Below, piece after piece: positions 10,162-18,156 of a stretch of 64,000 bases of DNA. The position numbers were made by a program, and so were the translations under genes. Every line of letters starts with the position of its first letter. Positions within the stretch are counted from its first letter, which is position 1. Source of the stretch: Thermoplasmatota archaeon (lineage in GTDB: Archaea > Thermoplasmatota > JAKEGO01); the NCBI GenBank assembly GCA_028279595.1, contig JANQNK010000003.1:1-64000 (forward strand). The letters run 5' to 3'. The notes beneath the pieces are model-generated. The model did no database searches, had not been told where the DNA came from, and was given only the letters and a program-made list of their open reading frames with translations.

Positions 10162-12183
10162 TCAGTGGATCTCCGCGCCTGACTTGATCTCCTTGCTAGG
10201 ATCCGGCATCAACATCGAGACGACGCCGTCCTTCTGCGCTGCAAGGAGCATCCCTTCGGACTTCACACCCCTAAGCTTCGCCGGTTTCAGGTTCGCCACA
10301 ACGATGATCTTCTTTCCGACCATGTCCTCGCGCTGATAGTACGGCTTCATCCCGGCAACGATCTGGCGTTCCTCGCCGCCGATGTCGACCTTCATCACGT
10401 AGAGCTTGTCCGCATCCGGGTGCTTCTCGACGGAGAGGATCTCCGCGACCCTCAGGTCGAGCCTGTTCAGGTAGTCCATGCTGATCATTTCCTTCTCCTC
10501 CTTCTCTTCCTCAGGCTCCTTCGGCTCCCCGCCGCCATCCCAGTTATCGAGGACCTCCTCGAGGTCTATGACATTGAAGAGTATCTCCGGTTTCTCCATC
10601 GCTGCCGTTTCGAGGTCCACGAGACCGTCAGACCATGTGTCCTCATGGATCGACCCCTCTCCGCCCATCATAGCGTACAGACGGTCGGCGGAATGGGGCA
10701 GGAACGGTGCCATCAGGTAGTTCAGGGCCTTCACGACCCGACACGCGGTGTGGACAACGGTCGATGCCTCGTCCATGTCTGTCTTGACGAGCTTCCATGG
10801 CTCCCTGACCATGAGGTACCTGTTGCCCTCCTGGGCCAGGGCCATCACCTCGCGCATCCCGTCCTTGAACCTGCACTCGGTCAATGCGGATGCCGTGAGC
10901 TCGTATGCCTTCTCTATGGCAGCTAGCATTGCGTCATCGTCCCCTGTCGGGGGAGCGGCGACGGGCGGTATCCCGTTGAAGTTCGCGACAGCGAACGTCA
11001 GCGTCCTGTTGATGAAGTTCCCGAGGGTCCCGACGAGCTCGTTGTTGTTCTTCGCCACGAAGTCCTCCCAGGTGAAGTCTGTGTCCTTCCGCTCCGGCAT
11101 GTTCACGGAGAGATAGTAACGCAGAGCGTCCACAGAGAACTGCTCGAGGAAGTCGTCGACGTAGATGACGTGGCCCCGGCTCTTCGAGAACTGGAGTCCG
11201 CGGAACGACAGGTATTCGTTGGCCGGTACGTCATAGGGGAGGTTGAGACCGCCGTAGCCCATGAGCTCCGCCGGCCAGATGATGGTGTGGAACGGGATGT
11301 TGTCCTTGGCGAGGAAGTAGTAATGGCGGCACTCGGGGTCCTGCCAGAAGCGCTTCCAGGCCTCCTCGTCACCGGACCTGCGGGCCCACTCCTTCGCGGT
11401 CGATAGGTACCCGATGACGGCCTCGAACCAGACGTAGATCCGCTTGGTCTCATACCCCTCCAGGGGGACCTCTATGCCCCACTTCAGGTCGCGGGTGATC
11501 GCGCGGTCCCTGATGCCCTCGTTGAGCCAGTTCCTGGTGAAACCCATGGTGTTAGGCCGCCAGTGGTCCTTGTCCTTGACCCACTCCTCCAGCCTGTCCT
11601 GGAACCCGCTGAGTGCGAGGAAGAAATGGCTCGTCCTCCTGATCTCGGGCGTTGCGCCGCAGAGCTTGCACCTGGGATCGATGAGCTCGTCCGGATTGAG
11701 CGGCCGGCCGCAGTTGTCGCACTGGTCGCCGCGAGCATCTCCGTAGCCACAGTGGGGACACTCGCCCTCCACATACCTGTCGGGGAGGAACTGGTCGCAC
11801 GCGACGCAGTAGAGCGCGTCGAGCTCCTTTTCGTAGACGTGGCCGTTCTCCTTCAGTCTCAGGAATACGTCCTGGGCGACCTCGGCGTGGTTCGGATGGT
11901 GGGTCTGGAAGAAGAGGTCGAAGGTCACTCCGAGGTCGTTAAGGATCCTCGTGTTTAACTGATGGTATCTCTCGGCGATGACCTCGGGCTCCACACCTTC
12001 AGACTTTGCCGTGACGGTGATCGGAGTACCATGCTGGTCGCTCCCGGACACCATCAGGACCTCGCTGCCGGACATCCTGTGGAATCTCGCGAATATGTCG
12101 CACGGCAGGTAACAGCCGGCGACGTGGCCCAGATGCAGCGGACCGTTGGCGTAAGGCCAGGCTACCCCGATGAATATCCTCAT
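10162..12183 (-). CDS. metG: Methionine--tRNA ligase with C-terminal tRNA-binding domain
   Basis: PYANGPLHLGH (HIGH motif), zinc knuckles, KDNIPFH, QFSKS (KMSKS), C-terminal HPDADKLY..NLKPAKLRG.KSEGM. Confidence 0.98.
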   Translation of the reverse strand: MRIFIGVAWPYANGPLHLGHVAGCYLPCDIFARFHRMSGSEVLMVSGSDQHGTPITVTAKSEGVEPEVIAERYHQLNTRILNDLGVTFDLFFQTHHPNHAEVAQDVFLRLKENGHVYEKELDALYCVACDQFLPDRYVEGECPHCGYGDARGDQCDNCGRPLNPDELIDPRCKLCGATPEIRRTSHFFLALSGFQDRLEEWVKDKDHWRPNTMGFTRNWLNEGIRDRAITRDLKWGIEVPLEGYETKRIYVWFEAVIGYLSTAKEWARRSGDEEAWKRFWQDPECRHYYFLAKDNIPFHTIIWPAELMGYGGLNLPYDVPANEYLSFRGLQFSKSRGHVIYVDDFLEQFSVDALRYYLSVNMPERKDTDFTWEDFVAKNNNELVGTLGNFINRTLTFAVANFNGIPPVAAPPTGDDDAMLAAIEKAYELTASALTECRFKDGMREVMALAQEGNRYLMVREPWKLVKTDMDEASTVVHTACRVVKALNYLMAPFLPHSADRLYAMMGGEGSIHEDTWSDGLVDLETAAMEKPEILFNVIDLEEVLDNWDGGGEPKEPEEEKEEKEMISMDYLNRLDLRVAEILSVEKHPDADKLYVMKVDIGGEERQIVAGMKPYYQREDMVGKKIIVVANLKPAKLRGVKSEGMLLAAQKDGVVSMLMPDPSKEIKSGAEIH

Positions 12184-12205
12184 CTAGACCCTTTACCATC
12201 GAATC

Positions 12206-12220
12206 GATAAAAAGGGTTTT
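12206..12220 (-). promoter_or_regulatory. BRE/TATA promoter of metG (probably a leaderless transcript)
   Basis: Minus strand reads AAAACCCTTTTTATC, ending 23 nt before the ATG at 12183. Confidence 0.6.
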
Positions 12221-12284
12221 CGGTGACGCCCTCCGTATGGTTTCTGGATAAAACTCATATTCCAGAACGACCCTCTAACCAGCG

Positions 12285-13547
12285 ATGGCAGAGGTCAGGC
12301 GCGGTGGCTTCCACAGGATCGTTCTTCTAACTGTAGTCCTGATGCTCCTGGTGACGTTCTCTTCCGAGGCGGACCCTGAGGACGAGGACTGTGCCGAATG
12401 CCATGGACGGTTCACCCCCCCCACTATCGTCGCCCAGGGGCCATCCGAGGTACCCGTGGACGAGCCCTTCGAGGTCAGCATCGTCATCTTCAACCATGAG
12501 GCACGTGGTATCCACTACGATCTCCGGGACATAGAGGCCAGCATCTCGATTCCGGACAATTCAAGTGTCATTCTGGCATCGGGGGAGAATGGAACCAAGA
12601 CCCCCGACAACATCCCCCGCGCGGATACCGGAACGGTGATGTGGTCCCTGATATCCAACGAGACCGGACCCGCCGAGGTGGAATTCGAGATGGCCGGGAT
12701 CGCCTACTACAAGCACGATTCCAACTCGCCCGATGAGGCCCTCTACCGACGGGAGACCACTCTCGCCTTCGAGGTCAAGGACATCGGGATCTCCCTGACC
12801 GACTATTCCCTCACTGCCTTCGAGGGTGATGCCCTCTCGCGGGACATCACTCTCACCACCACCTACAACATCACCAACGTCACCTTCACAACGTCCAGCT
12901 CCTTGATCGATGTCGTGACGATATCCTCCGAAGAACCGGGATGGTCCGACGGTTTCCCGACCATTCCTGCGAACGGGACCAGGACCTTCACGATCACCGT
13001 CTCATCGGGAAGTCCAGTGGACGGTTCCATACTCGTCTCCTGGGACGATTCACACGGCGAGATGCGGCAGATCAACATCACCGTGTCCGTCCTCGATAAA
13101 CCCGAGAAGAGCGAGGCCGAGATCGACTACCTTAGATGGGCGGGCCGGATCTCCGGGATGATCGAGATACCTCTAGCCGCGTTCGTGATAGTCCTTGGCG
13201 GATTCCCACCACAGGTCAAACCCTGGTTGAAGAAGCTCGGAAGGAAACGGATAACGTATCATTGCAACGTCTCGTATCTGATCCTGGCGATCGCACTGTT
13301 CCACCTGGCCGTTCTCCTCGGCGGCCCGTTCGCCGGAGTCCTCTTCTCCACCGGAATGGTCTGGGGATTCCTTGCGCTCGCATTCCTGATAACCCTGGCG
13401 ATCAACGGTGCGGCCATGAAGCCGCTGATCAAGCGGTTGGGACGAAAGTACTGGATACGAATGCACCAGATATCATCGATCGGGTTCGTTGTATCGATGG
13501 CGATACATGCATATATGCTGGGAACGGAGTTCGCATTCCTGAGGTGA
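12285..13547 (+). CDS. Putative monoheme c-type cytochrome fused to Ig-like domains and a C-terminal 4-TM di-heme cytochrome b / ferric-reductase-like membrane domain
   Basis: Signal peptide followed directly by CAECH (12390-12404) and a beta-rich middle. C-terminal TM helices carry four His (ITYH, ALFH, IRMH, MAIH) in two pairs about 13 residues apart. Confidence 0.7.
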   Translation: MAEVRRGGFHRIVLLTVVLMLLVTFSSEADPEDEDCAECHGRFTPPTIVAQGPSEVPVDEPFEVSIVIFNHEARGIHYDLRDIEASISIPDNSSVILASGENGTKTPDNIPRADTGTVMWSLISNETGPAEVEFEMAGIAYYKHDSNSPDEALYRRETTLAFEVKDIGISLTDYSLTAFEGDALSRDITLTTTYNITNVTFTTSSSLIDVVTISSEEPGWSDGFPTIPANGTRTFTITVSSGSPVDGSILVSWDDSHGEMRQINITVSVLDKPEKSEAEIDYLRWAGRISGMIEIPLAAFVIVLGGFPPQVKPWLKKLGRKRITYHCNVSYLILAIALFHLAVLLGGPFAGVLFSTGMVWGFLALAFLITLAINGAAMKPLIKRLGRKYWIRMHQISSIGFVVSMAIHAYMLGTEFAFLR

Positions 13548-13551
13548 TATC

Positions 13552-13935
13552 ATGACCGAGGTCCTCTTCTGGTTCCATCCCGTCCTTGCCATCGCCGCCT
13601 ACTTCTTCATCTTCCTCAACACAGTCCAGACGAACGTCGGCGCGAATCAGCGATGTCTCTTCAGAACAGCCGCCATCGGGTGGTTCCTCCTGCTGGGCGG
13701 ACTGATATCCGGGATGGTCTGGGCGCAGGCCGAATGGGGTTCCTACTGGAGCTGGGACCCGAAGGAGACGGCTACCCTTGCATTGTTCCTCTCCCTCTCC
13801 GCATATCACATCGTGCTCGAGAAGGAGTATGGCTGGAAGATCCTCCGTTTCCTTTCGCTGACGAACGGTGCGTTGATATTCGTTACCCTGATGATATCGA
13901 AGATCATGGAGAGCCTTCACTCCCATTACGTTTGA
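13552..13935 (+). CDS. ccsA: Minimal cytochrome c biogenesis protein, CcsA type (WWD domain)
   Basis: GMVWAQAEWGSYWSWDPKET, His in FHP, AYH and SLHSH. The SD GAGGTGA overlaps the upstream stop codon. Confidence 0.85.
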   Translation: MTEVLFWFHPVLAIAAYFFIFLNTVQTNVGANQRCLFRTAAIGWFLLLGGLISGMVWAQAEWGSYWSWDPKETATLALFLSLSAYHIVLEKEYGWKILRFLSLTNGALIFVTLMISKIMESLHSHYV

Positions 13936-13938
13936 ATT

Positions 13939-16900
13939 TCAGGGATCGACGAGCTTCCGACATTCGTCGCAGGCCCAGCTGTCGTACTTCTTGTCAAAGC
14001 GGATCGGAGAACCGCAGTCGGGGCATCTTCGTTCCGGAGCTTTGCTCTTCCTCGATGGAGGTGCCTCCCGGACTGGCGTCCTTCGTACCGGTTCCTCGAA
14101 CGTCGCTTTCGGGATCCTCTGCGACCTACGGGGCTCCCTTTCCCCCCATCCCGATGTATCGAAGGGTCCGACGTCACGTGGTGGAGGACGTCTGTATCTC
14201 TCCGGTTTCTCGATCCCATCATGATACAAAGCTGTACGATTCGTTGGTCTTGCCGGAGCCTCTCTCCTCGAAGGTGGGTCCTTCTTTTTCCGGGTGAGGA
14301 GGATAGCGACCAATACGACCAGTAGCACGATCAGCGATATCGCACCCAGGACCTCCGTCGGGAGAAACGCTTCATCCCTGGATTCTCCTTCGCTATCGGG
14401 TTCGGTCGGGGACGGGTCCGGGTCCTCTCCAATAGGATCTTCTCCTATTGGATCCTCACCCGTGGGATCCTCGGGATCCGACCTTTTATCCGTGAAAGGA
14501 TATCTGTCATAGATCTTCCTACCTCTTGTGTACGGCTCCTCCCCTATTCCATCGCCGTCATCGTCTGTTCCGTTATAGTTAGCCCAGTAATTGCCTTCAG
14601 AACCGTCGTCGAATGTACAGTTTCCATAGTTGACTGCATATGAATCAGTGGTGTTCCCTCTGAACGTATTGTGATGTACGGTGTTCCAATGAGAATGTCC
14701 TTTGATCTGGATCCCATGACCAATATCCACGACGAATGAATTGCTGTACACATCGGTATCACTGGCCGCTACGTAATCCTGTTGGCCGTAGATGGTCAAA
14801 TGGACATGCGCCTTCAATCCCTCATCGTAATACGTACCTGTAAGCCTGTAATTCGGCGATGAGTACCCATCGATCAACAATCCATTGACGTTGCAGCCCT
14901 TGATCACATTCGACGACACCGTCGCGTAACTCGAAGCGAAGATGTGGATGCCTGACGAGCCGTTGATGATGGTGTTACCCGCTATCTCTTCCCGGTGTGA
15001 GAACTCGATGTGAATCCCATGTATCCTGCTTTCGATCGTATTGTTGGACATGCGGTTCCGACCCGTGGTCGCTGAGTACCTCTCATGATTTGGCGACGGT
15101 TGCATGTTCCTGTAAAAGGGGATGGTCACCCGATTATCGATGTGGATGCCGGTCGAGCTGCCGCTGATGTGATTCCCATCGATGATGTTCTCAGTTGAAT
15201 CCTCCAGTTCGATGGGATGACTGACATTGAACGAATTGTTGAAGATATGGTTGCCATTTCCGCGAACGATGCTGATACCATACTTCAGACCGCGACCATC
15301 CCTGCCGTCGAAGTGGCAATCCATGATCGAGCAATCATCAGTGGTCAATTCGATCCCCGTTGATAGGAGATCCCCGGTCAAACTCACACCTGAGATCTTC
15401 GCACCTGGTTCCTTGAACCTGATGACGGTGTCTCCCTCGTATCTTGCATCGATGGTCGTCGTGTACGTACCGTTTCCGATTATCTCGACCCCGGCCGGGA
15501 CCTTTATCTTCTCGTAGTAGGTCCCGTCATGCACTCGGACGACGTCGTCTGGGCCAGAGGATTTCAATGCATCCTCGATGGTATCGAAATCCGCACCAAT
15601 CCAATCATCATCCACGATCCAGGTCATCGGGATCCGTGAACCGTTCGGTTCCATTACGGGATGATGGTCCTTTGAATCCTGGGCACCATCGATATTGTAG
15701 GCCTTCTCGCCGGTTCCGTCCCCATCCAGGTCGGATCCGGAATAGTCGGACCAGAAATTTCCAGAAAGGTACCTGTCCCAGTAATTTTCGGCCGATCCGT
15801 CAAAGGCTTGTTTTTGAGTTCCGTTCCCATTGGCTATCAGTGTGTTTCCGGTGATATGGTTCATGTAACTGTGCTTGTTCACCCAGATGGCGAAATCGGT
15901 GCTATTGAAGACTGTGCATTTGGTCAATTGCCCCATGTCACTACTTTCGATCTTTATCCCGTATTCACGATTGTTGATGAACCGGGATCCATCGACGTCG
16001 ACCATCTGGGAATATCTGATCGAGAGCCCGTTTCTCTGCGATCCCCGGACCACACTGTCCTCGATCGTGATGTTGTTTGAGAATGTGAGCAGGATCCCGG
16101 ACCCAGTTGAATTCAACACCCGGCAACCGACTATCGTGATATCCCATGCGTATATGGTCCTGATACCCCTATAATGCCCAGTAAATGTGCAATTTCGAAT
16201 AGTAATATTGCCTAGATTATCAACGACCGCTCCTTCGCTATCGGCATGGCCCAGTACATGAAGATCGCTTATGGTAACGTTCTCAGACAAGATCTCAAGG
16301 CAAGATCCATTGGGTATGTACAGAACGGTGGACCCGGATCCATTTCCCACGATGGATATCGATGAATTGATGGTCAATAGATCGGTGTAATTACCCGAGT
16401 AGAGTCGGATCGTATCCCCCGGCTGCACCCATTCTAACGCTTCCGTAATTGTGGTAAAATCGACTCCCCGCCCTGGTTCCTCGGCAACGGACCAGGTATT
16501 AAGATCAGAACCTCCCCAGATAATGATCGCATCCGGCTCGCTCCAGAGACTCCCATTGTCCATGACCCGCAGGGATATCGTCGTGACCCCGTCGGGGAAT
16601 GGCCCCGCCTCGACGGTGGAATTCGTCCCATTATAGAATTCCCCGTCTCCTGATGAACTCCATGAATAGAGAGCTACGGATCCATCGATATCCGTTGCGT
16701 TCGCTGAAAGGATCAACGTGGAGTTCGTTTCCACCACTGTCCTTTGAGGGAATTGAATGAAACCCGATGGTTGATGGTTGATGATCCGACGGGTAGCGTT
16801 CGGTCTGGAGTATGGGAACCTATCCTGGGAACCTGCTGAACCTTCAATTTCGTAAGGGACATCGAACACACGATCGTTGTCCTTGTCCTCCCCTGTCGCG

Positions 16901-18156
16901 TCTGACCAGAAGTTCCCCTCCCAACCGTCATCCCAGATGTTGTCGGGTGAATCATCGTATCCCTGCCGGCCTGACCCGTTACCGTTGTCCCAGACCTGGT
17001 TGGCCAAGAATGAATTGTTCTTACAATACATCGATTCGCTCCCACCGAGGATCATCATCCCATGTCCGGCGTTATTTGAGATCAAGTTCGATCGGACCTC
17101 GTTGTGGCCCGACCCATCGAACAGCTGGATCCCGTGTCCGAGATTGTGCGAGAATGTATTGTTCTCGATCCGGTTCTGACCGCTACCCTCGATGGCGACA
17201 CCTGACCAATCGTTGAATGAACATGAGTTGTCGGTTATCACATTGTTATAGTTCGTACCGGACAGATAGATGCCGTTCTTGTGACATTCCCTGATGACAT
17301 TGCCATTTATCGTAATACCACTCGAATGGCGGATCATTATCCCATGCCTGCCACAGGATGAGATTGAGTTGTTCGATATCTCGATCCCCGTGGAGTTCCC
17401 GAGGCGTATGCACCTCGATTCCATTCCTGTGAAGTCACACCCGGATATCTCGATATCCTCCGATCCATCAAGTCCTATTGCTCCGTTGGACATGTCTTGG
17501 AAAGTACTCATCCGAACGTGCGAAGACTCAGAATTCTCGAATGAGATACCCCATAGCAAGCAATTCCTGAACTCGTTTCCGGAGGTCTTGATGGTGTTTG
17601 AATCGACTATTCGTAATCCCTTCTCAGTGATGTTTTCGAACATGTTTCCTGTGATGCTCACTCCGTAGGTCTCATCGACCTCGATTCCCGTTCTGTTGCA
17701 GTTCCGGAAAACGTTGTCGATATAGCTATGTGAGGAAAAGACCGTTCGAGATCCCTTCCAGCAGTTGTAGAACAGGTTGTTCGAGATCGTACATGAGTCC
17801 GTCATCATGTGAATCCCACAGAATTCATCCATATTACCTGTAGTGATGGCCAGGTTCGATACTGTCGAGGGCTTTGTGATCCTGATCGCATTCCATATTC
17901 CCTGACCATCGATCAGGGATGCATCCGTTCCATTTCCATTGAGCGTGACGGAATTGTTGATCCACAGGTTCTCGTAGTAAACGCCCTCGTAAACGAGGAC
18001 AGTGTCACCATCCGCGGATGCATCGAGGGCGTCCTGAATGGAAGTGTAATCCGCCCATGAACCTCCGTCATCATCCACTATGAAGGTGTCCCCCGCCGCG
18101 GAGATCGTCATGAACACGAAAGCAATTACGAACCCGATGGTGGCCAGTGCTCTCAG
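13939..18156 (-). CDS. Large surface protein: three NosD/pectin-lyase-like beta-helix modules, a PKD-like domain, TM helix and cytoplasmic zinc ribbon
   Basis: VDDDGGSWADYTSIQDA start, three GN(F/Y)W..D..D.DG..PY ends, TM near the C-terminus, CPDCG..CDEC. The frame is open upstream of the tracked GTG (18117) to a CTG at 18156, which gives a full signal peptide. Exact start uncertain. Confidence 0.8.
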   Translation of the reverse strand: MRALATIGFVIAFVFMTISAAGDTFIVDDDGGSWADYTSIQDALDASADGDTVLVYEGVYYENLWINNSVTLNGNGTDASLIDGQGIWNAIRITKPSTVSNLAITTGNMDEFCGIHMMTDSCTISNNLFYNCWKGSRTVFSSHSYIDNVFRNCNRTGIEVDETYGVSITGNMFENITEKGLRIVDSNTIKTSGNEFRNCLLWGISFENSESSHVRMSTFQDMSNGAIGLDGSEDIEISGCDFTGMESRCIRLGNSTGIEISNNSISSCGRHGIMIRHSSGITINGNVIRECHKNGIYLSGTNYNNVITDNSCSFNDWSGVAIEGSGQNRIENNTFSHNLGHGIQLFDGSGHNEVRSNLISNNAGHGMMILGGSESMYCKNNSFLANQVWDNGNGSGRQGYDDSPDNIWDDGWEGNFWSDATGEDKDNDRVFDVPYEIEGSAGSQDRFPYSRPNATRRIINHQPSGFIQFPQRTVVETNSTLILSANATDIDGSVALYSWSSSGDGEFYNGTNSTVEAGPFPDGVTTISLRVMDNGSLWSEPDAIIIWGGSDLNTWSVAEEPGRGVDFTTITEALEWVQPGDTIRLYSGNYTDLLTINSSISIVGNGSGSTVLYIPNGSCLEILSENVTISDLHVLGHADSEGAVVDNLGNITIRNCTFTGHYRGIRTIYAWDITIVGCRVLNSTGSGILLTFSNNITIEDSVVRGSQRNGLSIRYSQMVDVDGSRFINNREYGIKIESSDMGQLTKCTVFNSTDFAIWVNKHSYMNHITGNTLIANGNGTQKQAFDGSAENYWDRYLSGNFWSDYSGSDLDGDGTGEKAYNIDGAQDSKDHHPVMEPNGSRIPMTWIVDDDWIGADFDTIEDALKSSGPDDVVRVHDGTYYEKIKVPAGVEIIGNGTYTTTIDARYEGDTVIRFKEPGAKISGVSLTGDLLSTGIELTTDDCSIMDCHFDGRDGRGLKYGISIVRGNGNHIFNNSFNVSHPIELEDSTENIIDGNHISGSSTGIHIDNRVTIPFYRNMQPSPNHERYSATTGRNRMSNNTIESRIHGIHIEFSHREEIAGNTIINGSSGIHIFASSYATVSSNVIKGCNVNGLLIDGYSSPNYRLTGTYYDEGLKAHVHLTIYGQQDYVAASDTDVYSNSFVVDIGHGIQIKGHSHWNTVHHNTFRGNTTDSYAVNYGNCTFDDGSEGNYWANYNGTDDDGDGIGEEPYTRGRKIYDRYPFTDKRSDPEDPTGEDPIGEDPIGEDPDPSPTEPDSEGESRDEAFLPTEVLGAISLIVLLVVLVAILLTRKKKDPPSRREAPARPTNRTALYHDGIEKPERYRRPPPRDVGPFDTSGWGEREPRRSQRIPKATFEEPVRRTPVREAPPSRKSKAPERRCPDCGSPIRFDKKYDSWACDECRKLVDP
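14420..14472 (-). repeat. 15-bp degenerate coding tandem repeat (EDPTG-EDPIG-EDPIG-EDP stalk linker)
   Basis: Visible in both the DNA and the translation, just before the TM helix. Confidence 0.7.

What the first reader, a model, noticed from the sequence alone, without database searches (positions are those of the whole stretch)
12285..13935. Self-contained two-gene cytochrome c system: CxxCH/cytochrome-b fusion plus a 127-aa minimal CcsA with no CcsB
Seen: gene 1 has a signal peptide, CAECH right after the cleavage site, Ig-like spacer domains and a 4-TM domain with two His pairs. Gene 2 starts 4 nt later, with its SD overlapping the stop. It encodes little more than the WWD core WAxxxWGxYWxWDPKET plus three His (FHP, AYH, SLHSH). 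Established: the DPKET ending is typical of System II CcsA (CcmC has DxRLT, CcmF has DPVEN). CcsA is normally about twice this size or more and works with CcsB/ResB, which supplies one transmembrane heme ligand. Characterised archaeal cytochrome c maturation relies mainly on System I. No ccsB or ccm genes occur in this 64 kb. Inference: a dedicated, stripped-down heme-attachment system. The substrate's own b-heme membrane domain may replace CcsB or supply reductant, yielding a trans-membrane electron wire (b hemes to an external c heme on a stalk) in a lineage not known for c-type cytochromes.
Basis: partly seen in the sequence, partly recalled or inferred. Interest (0 to 1): 0.85.

Follow-up and report, generated by a model that had tools for sequence, protein, structure and literature searches.

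The report
Minimal archaeal cytochrome c maturation pair
Two tightly coupled genes in an uncultured Thermoplasmatota archaeon encode a membrane cytochrome with one outward-facing covalent-haem site and a half-size haem-handling protein; in many archaeal genomes this small protein sits beside or is fused to such cytochromes and takes the place of the usual multi-protein maturation machinery, so it may be the simplest prokaryotic cytochrome c assembly system seen so far.

Summary
Gene 1 (12285-13547, 420 aa) has a signal peptide, an invariant CxxCH, two beta-sandwich domains and a 4-helix membrane domain with two invariant H-x13-H pairs. Gene 2 (13552-13935, 127 aa) starts 4 nt after gene 1's stop. 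It is a 4-helix core of the haem-handling (WWD) family.

Gene 2 is not a remnant. It belongs to a monophyletic family of 120-180-aa proteins. In all 11 genomic cases examined it lies directly downstream of an exported N-terminal-CxxCH protein. In metagenomic proteins it is fused to that domain.

In 401 genomes of the phylum, 26 carry only the short form, 160 carry only canonical CcmF/CcmC-type proteins, and none carries both. Short-form genomes, including a closed Bathyarchaeia genome, gave no ResB or CcmE hits. One relative has the same cytochrome beside ccmF-ccmC-ccmE.

Only the two external His ligands and the WWD motif are conserved. The 'AYH' histidine is not. The idea that the substrate's b-haem domain replaces CcsB is not general, because Bathyarchaeia versions lack that domain.

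c-type cytochrome machinery is in fact common in this phylum. HemB and HemC were not found, which suggests haem is scavenged. An earlier scan note reports a similar module in an Asgard archaeon; I did not test it. No biochemistry exists.

The parts
12285..13547 (+). Gene 1: exported monohaem c-type cytochrome candidate fused to a di-haem-b membrane domain (420 aa)
   Evidence: ORF. Homologues at 21-67% identity keep CxxCH and four membrane His. AlphaFold2 mean pLDDT 84.
12285..12389 (+). Signal peptide region (residues 1-35); hydrophobic core at about residues 12-25, likely cleavage after SEA a few residues before the CxxCH
   Evidence: Read from the sequence. The same layout, with CxxCH 2-10 residues after an AxA-like site, is seen in all homologues. 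Cleavage itself is inferred.
12390..12404 (+). CAECH haem c attachment motif (residues 36-40)
   Evidence: Invariant C36, C39 and H40 in 11 homologues. Present in 21 of 23 N-terminal domains of different architectures, with one CxxxxCH and one CxxYH variant.
12411..12785 (+). Beta-sandwich domain 1 (residues 43-167), which carries the haem site; conserved His144 is the candidate sixth ligand
   Evidence: AlphaFold2. VIA-align: macroglobulin/CARDB-like sandwiches, Z 11-12. His144 is nearly invariant. The ligand role is inferred.
12786..13100 (+). Beta-sandwich domain 2 (residues 168-272), a spacer of MSP/PapD-like fold
   Evidence: AlphaFold2. VIA-align Z about 10-11 to MSP/ASH domains.
13122..13544 (+). 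Four-helix membrane domain with H326/H340 and H394/H408 (two H-x13-H pairs): a ferric-reductase-like di-haem-b core
   Evidence: Pfam PF01794 26.8 bits, homologue 36.8. The four His are invariant. VIA-align: CybB Z 10.6, NOX5 TM Z 9.9 at 18% identity, STEAP1 Z 9.2.
13541..13547 (+). GAGGTGA Shine-Dalgarno-like motif overlapping the gene 1 stop codon; a 4-nt spacer precedes the gene 2 ATG
   Evidence: In ten other pairs the gap ranges from an overlap of about 16 nt to 9 nt (coordinates).
13552..13935 (+). Gene 2: minimal 4-TM haem-handling (WWD) protein, 127 aa
   Evidence: PF01578 60.9 bits. AlphaFold2 pLDDT 89, four helices. Aligns to CcmF 164-292 (Z 13.5, rmsd 2.0), CcsBA 753-893 (Z 12.2) and CcmC 52-187 (Z 11.8).
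13576..13578 (+). His9 codon, equivalent to the external ligand P-His1
   Evidence: Invariant. Aligns with the HP/HV histidine of CcmF, CcsBA and CcmC (H60) in the PDB profile search.
13720..13770 (+). WWD motif (residues 57-73, WAQxxWGSYWSWDPKET)
   Evidence: Invariant W57, A58, W62, W66, W68, D69, P70, K71, E72.
13918..13920 (+). His123 codon, equivalent to the external ligand P-His2
   Evidence: Invariant. Aligns with the (L/M)HSY/HAF histidine of CcsBA and CcmF.

Best explanation
Gene 2 encodes a stand-alone, minimal cytochrome c synthase or haem-presenting protein of the haem-handling (WWD) superfamily. It consists of four membrane helices. These place His9, the WWD loop and His123 on the outer face, forming the external haem-binding site that CcmC, CcmF and CcsA all share. 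It lacks the transmembrane histidine site of CcsBA and CcmF.

Its client is the protein encoded just upstream. The CxxCH of that protein lies a few residues after the signal peptide. While still tethered, the motif is therefore held at the membrane surface next to the WWD site, where haem is joined to the two cysteines.

The product is a three-haem membrane protein. Two b haems sit between the H-x13-H helices, and one bis-His c haem (His40 plus probably His144) sits on an external beta-sandwich. It would carry electrons across the membrane to or from an external partner.

A thioredoxin-CcdA fusion elsewhere in the genome probably keeps the cysteines reduced.

What is shown: the anatomy, the conservation, the synteny, the fusions, and the mutually exclusive distribution with Ccm.

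What is inferred: covalent haem attachment, haem loading without a transmembrane channel, the sixth ligand, and the direction and partners of electron flow.
For: 1. Family membership and ligand mapping:
- PF01578 scores 60.9 bits.
- A profile of the short family aligns His9 with P-His1 and His123 with P-His2 of CcmF (6zmq), CcsBA (25vk, 7s9y) and CcmC (7f02).
- The model superposes on exactly those segments.

2. Not a remnant:
- 46 short or fused sequences form one clade with support 0.987.
- 20 columns are invariant.

3. Linkage to the client:
- All 11 short genes examined in 9 genomes lie within an overlap of about 16 nt to a 9-nt gap downstream of an exported N-terminal-CxxCH gene.
- Natural fusions join CxxCH, sandwich, linker and short WWD in one chain (P0023, P0025, P0026, P0032). 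P0044 and P0049 add a further two-H-x13-H membrane domain.
- The fusions attach an exported domain to the N terminus of the WWD protein. This fits the N-out topology that places H9, WWD and H123 outside.

4. Replacement of Ccm:
- In 401 genomes of the phylum, 26 have only short forms (at least 98 bits, ORF at most 180 aa). 160 have only canonical forms (at most 64 bits, ORF at least 223 aa). None has both.
- Short-form genomes at 90-99% completeness gave no ResB or CcmE hit.
- The closed Bathyarchaeia genome has a single PF01578 hit and no ResB or CcmE hit.
- G005 and G016 belong to the same family and have syntenic cytochrome genes. G016 has ccmF-ccmC-ccmE beside them, while G005 has the short gene instead.

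5. In this genome gene 1 is the only ORF with a signal peptide directly followed by CxxCH.

6. A thioredoxin-CcdA fusion is present.
Against: - No biochemical evidence exists for covalent haem on any member.
- No structure of the complex is available, and a multimer prediction could not be run.
- How haem reaches an external site through a 4-helix protein without transmembrane His ligands is unknown.
- The c-haem domain is separated from the membrane domain by a second beta-sandwich. Model pTM is only 0.63, so direct b-to-c electron transfer is not shown.
- An unrecognised partner protein cannot be excluded, because absence was tested only for known families.
- The genome is 86% complete.
- Related genomes are not independent samples, so the 0-of-26 overlap overstates statistical weight.
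- HemB and HemC were not found here, so the haem source is itself unexplained.
Confidence: 0.6

Rival explanations
1. The short WWD protein is a synthase core that cannot work alone. It needs a b-haem membrane domain, either the ferric-reductase-like domain of gene 1 or the C-terminal extension in P0044 and P0049. That domain would keep the WWD-bound haem iron reduced, as the b haem of CcmF does, or would pass haem to it, as the CcsB part of CcsBA does. Some other unrecognised partner is also possible.
For: - All ten Thermoplasmatota pairs have the di-haem domain on the client.
- P0043, P0044 and P0049 fuse the WWD core directly to a membrane domain with two H-x13-H helices and weak Ni_hydr_CYTB/DUF4405 matches.
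- Tight translational coupling suggests 1:1 stoichiometry.
- CcmF and CcsBA both combine a WWD site with a transmembrane haem. This is established knowledge, reviewed in PMC10663686, which appeared but was not opened here.
Against: - The pair in the closed Bathyarchaeia genome (client of 268 aa with a single anchor helix) has no b-haem domain. Neither do fusions P0023, P0025, P0026 and P0032.
- No sequence homology links the two kinds of di-haem domain.
- CcmC works with an external-only site and no transmembrane His.
Confidence: 0.2
2. The short WWD protein is not a lyase. It is a permanent haem-binding subunit. It could be part of the electron path between the outer b haem and the c haem. 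Alternatively it could be an outer-face haem receptor that captures environmental haem for a haem-auxotrophic cell.
For: - HemB and HemC were not found in this genome. They were also missing from all seven other short-form Thermoplasmatota genomes tested, which are 78-99% complete. Haem must therefore be acquired from outside.
- Only the external haem site is conserved.
- Permanent fusions to the client exist.
Against: - Exclusivity with Ccm means the CxxCH proteins of 26 genomes would be left with no attachment system.
- Nine of 11 Ccm-type relatives tested also gave no HemB or HemC hit, so auxotrophy does not track the short form.
- The Bathyarchaeia genome with the short form does have HemB and HemC.
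Confidence: 0.12
3. The CxxCH of gene 1 is not a haem c site (for example a metal or disulfide motif), and the neighbouring WWD gene handles haem only for the b-haem domain.
For: - No biochemical proof of haem c exists.
- The N-terminal domain matches no known cytochrome c fold.
- One family member has CxxYH (P0048).
Against: - CxxCH is invariant next to a signal peptide across several architectures.
- Clients without any b-haem domain still pair with, or fuse to, the WWD protein.
- Homologues lie beside ccmF-ccmC-ccmE.
- All characterised WWD proteins serve covalent haem attachment (established knowledge).
Confidence: 0.05
4. Gene 2 is a truncated, decaying remnant of a full-length ccsA.
For: It covers only profile positions 116-200 of 212 in PF01578 and scores far below the CcsA equivalog cut-off (58 against 188 bits).
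Against: - It belongs to a monophyletic, length-conserved family in at least 10 families of the phylum and in Bathyarchaeia.
- The functional residues are invariant.
- The 4-helix model is confident.
- The first helix, with the HP histidine, is intact. The protein is therefore a complete P-His1-to-P-His2 unit and not a C-terminal fragment.
Confidence: 0.01

Closest known systems
CcsA/ResC of System II cytochrome c synthase (CcsBA; PDB 7s9y/7s9z and 25vk; NCBIfam TIGR03144)
   Same: - It is the best family-level sequence match (TIGR03144 58 bits against CcmC 33 bits).
- It has the WGxYWxWDPKET form of the WWD motif.
- The two external His ligands align.
- NCBI names relatives 'CcsA'.
- The model superposes on CcsBA 753-893 (Z 12.2, 22% identity).
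   Different: - It is half the size, with 4 helices.
- The transmembrane histidine (TM-His2) is not conserved.
- No CcsB/ResB partner was found in any short-form genome tested.
- It scores far below the equivalog cut-off.
- It forms its own clade, separate from the 240-300-aa CcsA-type proteins.
- It is fused or adjacent to its own substrate.
CcmC of System I (PDB 7f02, 8ce1)
   Same: - It has the same ligand logic: only an external site (two periplasmic His plus WWD) and no transmembrane His.
- The short protein corresponds to CcmC residues 52-187.
- CcmC chains are the top two Foldseek hits.
   Different: - CcmC has 6 helices.
- CcmC hands haem to CcmE rather than to the apocytochrome.
- CcmC works with CcmD, CcmA and CcmB, and has a WDxR(L)T-type motif.
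- CcmE and CcmB were not found here.
CcmF haem lyase (PDB 6zmq)
   Same: - It is the best PDB profile hit (41 bits).
- It is the best homologous structural superposition (Z 13.5, rmsd 2.0 A over 116 residues).
- It attaches haem directly to CxxCH.
- It combines a WWD site with a membrane b haem. This arrangement is echoed by gene 1 plus gene 2, and by fusions P0044 and P0049.
   Different: - CcmF has 600-1300 aa and needs holo-CcmE and CcmH.
- Its b-haem ligands lie within the same protein.
- It has a DPVEN/DPIE motif.
- Canonical CcmF-type genes are never found together with the short form.
Ferric-reductase-domain haem proteins (NOX, STEAP, MsrQ/YedZ; Pfam PF01794) and 4-helix di-haem cytochromes b561/CybB
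   Same: - Two H-x13-H pairs sit on alternate helices.
- Pfam match.
- Fold matches to the NOX5 TM domain, STEAP1, CybB and Dcytb.
- There is no cytoplasmic NAD(P)H/FAD domain, as in MsrQ (from my own knowledge).
   Different: - Four helices are predicted instead of six.
- The external partner is a covalently linked c-haem beta-sandwich in the same chain. I found this architecture described nowhere in the library searched.
Archaeal System I variant (Kletzin et al. 2015, PMC4429474; Methanosarcina Ccm, PMC9084895)
   Same: It serves exported archaeal CxxCH proteins. In relative G016 this system sits next to the same cytochrome family.
   Different: - It is a multi-gene CcmABCEF system.
- The 2015 survey reported System I as the only system in Archaea. 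It probed System II only with ResB, so the short form would have escaped it.

Membership tests
Haem-handling protein superfamily (Pfam PF01578 Cytochrom_C_asm) | Profile match above the curated cut-off | tested here: met
   60.9 bits against a cut-off of 29.9. Whole-genome scan gives 56 bits.
Haem-handling protein superfamily (Pfam PF01578 Cytochrom_C_asm) | Tryptophan-rich WWD motif flanked by two conserved external histidines | tested here: met
   The WWD residues, H9 and H123 are invariant. They align to P-His1 and P-His2 of CcmF, CcsBA and CcmC.
System II CcsA/ResC (TIGR03144 equivalog) | Equivalog-level profile score | tested here: not met
   58.4 bits against a cut-off of 187.6. Only profile positions 159-250 of 252 are matched.
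System II CcsA/ResC (TIGR03144 equivalog) | Conserved transmembrane histidine (TM-His2) after the WWD motif | tested here: not met
   H85 is I, M, V or A in relatives and lies off the canonical position.
System II CcsA/ResC (TIGR03144 equivalog) | Partner CcsB/ResB encoded in the genome | tested here: not met
   No PF05140 hit in G000 (86% complete), in five short-form genomes (90-99% complete) or in the closed genome G061. The controls did detect the family.
System II CcsA/ResC (TIGR03144 equivalog) | DPKE(T) form of the WWD motif | tested here: met
   WSWDPKET in the window protein. The nearest long relatives are 240-300-aa PKE-type proteins.
System I CcmC (TIGR01191) | Profile score, and partners CcmE and CcmB | tested here: not met
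   33.4 bits against a cut-off of 186. No CcmE or CcmB hit.
System I CcmF/NrfE | CcmF C-terminal domain and transmembrane b-haem histidines in the same protein | tested here: not met
   No PF16327 hit in the genome. The protein ends at P-His2. No conserved transmembrane His.
Ferric reductase transmembrane domain (PF01794), gene 1 | Profile match, and two bis-His pairs on two helices | tested here: inconclusive
   26.8 bits, just under the cut-off of 28, while homologue L092 scores 36.8. The four His are invariant with H-x13-H spacing. Four rather than six helices are predicted.
c-type cytochrome (covalent haem on CxxCH, exported) | Signal peptide plus conserved CxxCH on the outer side | tested here: met
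c-type cytochrome (covalent haem on CxxCH, exported) | Haem covalently bound in the mature protein | not testable with these tools
   Needs haem staining, pyridine haemochrome or mass spectrometry.

The most novel reading that the evidence does not exclude
The 4-helix WWD protein alone is a complete cytochrome c synthase, a further and simplest prokaryotic maturation route. It needs no transmembrane haem channel because it loads haem at the outer face. In these apparently haem-auxotrophic archaea that haem would come from the environment. The protein may also preserve the ancestral core from which CcmC, CcmF and CcsA were elaborated.
Probability: 0.3. Interest if true: 0.92.

Novelty: new variant of a known kind. 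Interest (0 to 1): 0.78.

Why it matters
Cytochrome c maturation is a textbook case of unexpectedly complex machinery: eight or nine proteins in System I, and a 900-aa or two-protein synthase in System II. How haem is moved and attached is still debated.

A 125-145-aa protein keeps only the external haem site, yet appears to be the sole haem-handling protein in dozens of archaeal genomes. If it works as proposed, it would:
- define the minimal catalytic unit of the whole superfamily;
- give a small, tractable target for structure and mechanism;
- provide a compact tool for making c-type cytochromes in heterologous hosts.

It would also revise the view that Archaea use only System I (PMC4429474). 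It points to an undescribed three-haem transmembrane electron conduit in uncultured Thermoplasmatota and Bathyarchaeia. Finally, it raises the question of how cells that gave no HemB or HemC hit obtain haem for it.

Tried and rejected
**Explanations rejected**
- Truncated remnant: rejected on monophyly, length conservation and invariant ligands.
- A second exported cytochrome in the genome: the only other signal-peptide ORF with CxxCH (C9:47777-49000) carries the motif after its membrane helix, in a zinc-ribbon-like CxxC...CxxCH repeat. It is therefore cytoplasmic.
- H85 as the transmembrane haem ligand: rejected, because it is not conserved.
- Homology between the C-terminal extension of P0043, P0044 and P0049 and the gene 1 membrane domain: an HMM comparison gave only 0-5 bits. 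Only the H-x13-H spacing is shared.

**Searches that gave little**
- Foldseek on the whole gene 1 model returned only generic Ig-like tandem matches. No cytochrome-like fold appeared for the N-terminal domain. This does not show that the fold is new.
- NCBIfam 'choice_anch_V' matches the N-terminal domain weakly (24 bits against a cut-off of 42). I could not interpret this.
- A scan of genome contigs with the family alignment was swamped by ordinary CcsA. Only one short-type locus (L002) appeared among the 80 returned.
- A word-index search with the N-terminal domain alone found just one relative.
- Eight literature searches found no description of a short archaeal CcsA-like protein or of this cytochrome architecture. 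The library omits most subscription journals, so prior description cannot be ruled out.

**Tools unavailable**
Expression and co-transcription could not be examined, and read laying could not be used.
Full report
**1. What is in the window**

Two co-oriented ORFs lie between a divergent methionyl-tRNA synthetase gene (10162-12183, minus strand) and a convergent 1392-aa NosD/beta-helix surface protein gene (13939-18117, minus strand).

Gene 1 runs 12285-13547 (420 aa) and gene 2 runs 13552-13935 (127 aa). Gene 1 ends in TGA at 13545-13547. A GAGGTGA string overlaps that stop, and gene 2's ATG follows after 4 nt.

**2. Gene 1**

- After a hydrophobic leader comes CAECH at residues 36-40.
- AlphaFold2 with an 11-sequence alignment (mean pLDDT 84, pTM 0.63) gives two beta-sandwich domains (about 43-167 and 168-272), then four long membrane helices.
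- Across 11 homologues down to 21% identity, C36, C39, H40, H326, H340, H394 and H408 are invariant. H144 is nearly so.
- The four membrane histidines form two H-x13-H pairs on alternate helices. This is the classical di-haem arrangement of the ferric-reductase domain.
- Pfam PF01794 matches at 26.8 bits (cut-off 28), and at 36.8 bits in a homologue.
- The membrane domain superposes on CybB (Z 10.6), the NOX5 membrane domain (Z 9.9, 18% identity) and STEAP1 (Z 9.2).
- The first sandwich resembles macroglobulin/CARDB-type domains. The second resembles MSP/PapD-like domains. Neither resembles a known cytochrome c fold.
- An alignment of N-terminal domains from all architectures shows the CxxCH and a conserved histidine (YYxH or NxH, His144 here). 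This histidine is the obvious candidate for the sixth haem ligand. That role is inferred.

**3. Gene 2**

- Pfam Cytochrom_C_asm scores 60.9 bits but covers only profile positions 116-200 of 212.
- NCBIfam ranks CcsA (TIGR03144, 58 bits) above CcmC (33 bits) and CcmF/NrfE (21-30 bits). All are far below their cut-offs.
- The AlphaFold2 model (pLDDT 89) is a four-helix bundle.
- A profile of the short family, searched against PDB sequences, aligns His9 with the first external histidine and His123 with the second external histidine. The targets are T. thermophilus CcmF, two CcsBA proteins and E. coli CcmC (H60).
- The model superposes on exactly those segments: CcmF 164-292 (Z 13.5, rmsd 2.0 A), CcsBA 753-893 (Z 12.2) and CcmC 52-187 (Z 11.8). 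Four-helix bundles score highly in general, so the weight lies in the agreement with the sequence alignment.
- The histidine that CcsA and CcmF carry in the helix after the WWD motif is not conserved. The window's H85 (AYH) is I, M, V or A in relatives.
- The basic residues sit in the two loops opposite the WWD loop. This fits an N-out, C-out topology that puts H9, WWD and H123 outside.

The protein is thus the bare P-His1 - two helices - WWD - two helices - P-His2 unit common to the whole superfamily. Its ligand set is that of CcmC.

**4. It is a family, not a remnant**

- A full HMMER search of 1.84 billion representatives found about 30 clusters of 120-185 aa scoring above every ordinary CcsA, CcmC or CcmF.
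- In a tree of the core region of 160 sequences, 46 short or fused members form one clade with support 0.987.
- NCBI labels such proteins 'cytochrome c biogenesis protein CcsA [Thermoplasmata / Candidatus Thermoplasmatota archaeon]'.
- The ESM Atlas places gene 1 in a Thermoplasmatota cluster of hypothetical proteins.

**5. Linkage to the CxxCH client**

- In relatives G002, G005, G007, G029, G038 (two loci), G052 (two loci) and G058, and in a closed Bathyarchaeia genome (CP170178, locus L002), the short gene lies directly downstream of a gene for an exported protein. That protein's CxxCH follows its signal peptide. The spacing ranges from an overlap of about 16 nt to a 9-nt gap.
- In Bathyarchaeia the client is only 268 aa: CxxCH sandwich, Thr/Pro-rich linker and a single anchor helix. 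It has no b-haem domain.
- Metagenomic proteins fuse the parts. P0023, P0025, P0026 and P0032 are CxxCH sandwich - linker - short WWD.
- P0044 and P0049 add CarboxypepD_reg repeats. After the WWD core they carry a further membrane domain with two H-x13-H helices and weak cytochrome b561/DUF4405 matches.
- These fusions link the parts functionally. Because they attach an exported domain to the WWD protein's N terminus, they also support the predicted topology.

**6. Replacement of the canonical machinery**

| Test | Result |
|---|---|
| Own genome (2.29 Mb, 86% complete), PF01578 | one hit, gene 2 |
| Own genome, ResB, CcmE, CcmB, CcmF_C | no hit |
| 401 genomes of the phylum, short form only (at least 98 bits, ORF at most 180 aa) | 26 genomes |
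| 401 genomes, canonical CcmF/CcmC-like only (at most 64 bits, ORF at least 223 aa) | 160 genomes |
| 401 genomes, both forms | 0 genomes |
| Five short-form genomes (90-99% complete), ResB and CcmE | no hit |
| Three of five Ccm-type relatives, CcmE | found |
| Closed Bathyarchaeia genome | one PF01578 hit (the short gene), no ResB, no CcmE |
| 121 genomes of the Bathyarchaeia class | 12 have CcmF plus CcmC and no short form; only the closed genome has the short form |

The scores for the short and canonical forms are cleanly bimodal.

The most telling comparison is within one family. G016 carries ccmF - ccmC - ccmE followed by a 723-aa CxxCH protein and the gene 1 homologue. G005 has the syntenic 742-aa CxxCH protein and gene 1 homologue, followed by the short WWD gene and no ccm genes.

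Related genomes are not independent, so I give no P value. The pattern is nonetheless what functional replacement predicts.

**7. Other context**

- Gene 1 is the only ORF in the genome with a signal peptide followed by CxxCH.
- A thioredoxin-like domain fused to CcdA (C18, about 76.6-78.9 kb) could keep the cysteines reduced.
- HemB and HemC were not found in this genome, nor in the seven other short-form Thermoplasmatota genomes tested (78-99% complete).
- They were also missing from nine of eleven Ccm-type relatives. They are present in the Bathyarchaeia genome.
- These archaea therefore probably scavenge haem. This makes an external-only haem site attractive, but it does not distinguish short-form from Ccm-type genomes.

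**8. Mechanism proposed**

- The short protein binds haem at its outer face between H9 and H123 under the WWD loop.
- The apocytochrome's CxxCH is held at the membrane surface by its still-embedded signal peptide (or by a permanent tether in the fusions). It docks there, and the two thioether bonds form.
- The mature gene 1 product carries two b haems in the membrane and one c haem outside. It moves electrons across the membrane.
- Donor, acceptor and direction are unknown.
- The second sandwich may hold the c haem too far from the outer b haem for direct transfer, unless the domains fold back or the protein oligomerises.

I put this reading at 0.6. The main rival (0.2) is that a b-haem domain or an unknown partner is required, as the b haem is in CcmF. 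A non-catalytic haem-binding or haem-capturing role gets 0.12.

**9. Comparison with the literature**

- The 2015 survey of archaeal cytochromes c found only System I. It probed System II with ResB alone, and it listed 17 species with lone cytochrome c candidates and little evidence for maturation proteins (PMC4429474).
- The Methanosarcina Ccm study does not mention System II or CcsA (PMC9084895).
- Eight full-text searches found no description of a short archaeal WWD protein or of this cytochrome architecture.
I could not test that here. If it is correct, the family spans at least three archaeal phyla.

**10. Verdict**

- no transmembrane His ligand is retained;
- the b-haem domain is not a general substitute for CcsB;
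- the phylum is not poor in c-type cytochrome machinery.

This is a new variant of a known kind. It is a member of the haem-handling superfamily but not a canonical CcsA, CcmC or CcmF.

Limits:
- there is no biochemistry;
- no complex model could be made;

Noticed in passing
whole genome G000 and relatives: HemB (PF00490) and HemC (PF01379) were not found in this genome or in 16 of 19 other genomes tested. Several of these are 97-99% complete, yet they encode haem proteins. This suggests tetrapyrrole or haem auxotrophy and dependence on scavenged haem.
   Followed up: partly
window 13939-18117 (minus strand); L002:3725-5059 and L002:9569-10411: A 1392-aa NosD/right-handed beta-helix protein, with a C-terminal membrane anchor and a zinc-ribbon tail, lies convergent to the pair. 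NosD-like beta-helix genes also flank the Bathyarchaeia pair. This could be coincidence or a functional partner on the cell surface.
   Followed up: no
G000:C18, about 76640-78900 (minus strand; loci L094, L095): A 685-aa ORF joins a Pro/Glu-rich N-terminal region, a membrane helix, a thioredoxin-like CxxC domain and a CcdA/DsbD membrane domain. It is a candidate thiol-reduction partner for cytochrome c maturation.
   Followed up: partly
L099:7711-9936 (G005) and L096:8245-10413 (G016): A second client type exists: 723-742-aa exported proteins with the same N-terminal CxxCH sandwich, followed by Big_5 and PKD domains. They are encoded directly upstream of the gene 1 homologue in both genomes.
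   Followed up: partly
proteins P0026 and P0048: P0026 has a CxxxxCH variant (C-S-R-P-G-C-H). P0048 has CxxYH, a degraded WWD motif and no terminal histidine. P0048 may be a decaying fusion or a single-cysteine variant.
   Followed up: no
G038:C353:14327-14713 and G262:C150:6430-6720: Second copies of the short WWD gene in these genomes contain one in-frame TGA each. This could be a pseudogene, a sequencing error or recoding.
   Followed up: no
window 12184-12284: A 100-bp divergent intergenic region lies between metG and gene 1. It contains A/T-rich stretches (GATAAAAAG near 12208, and GATAAAACTCATATT ending about 23 nt before the ATG) that could be archaeal TATA boxes for a short-leader transcript.
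   Followed up: no
G052:C39 (L097:3098-4805) and G007:C20 (L098:3169-4902): Paralogous pairs occur in which the client keeps the CxxCH start and the di-haem membrane domain but has a different middle domain. Each is again followed by a 134-aa short WWD gene.
   Followed up: partly
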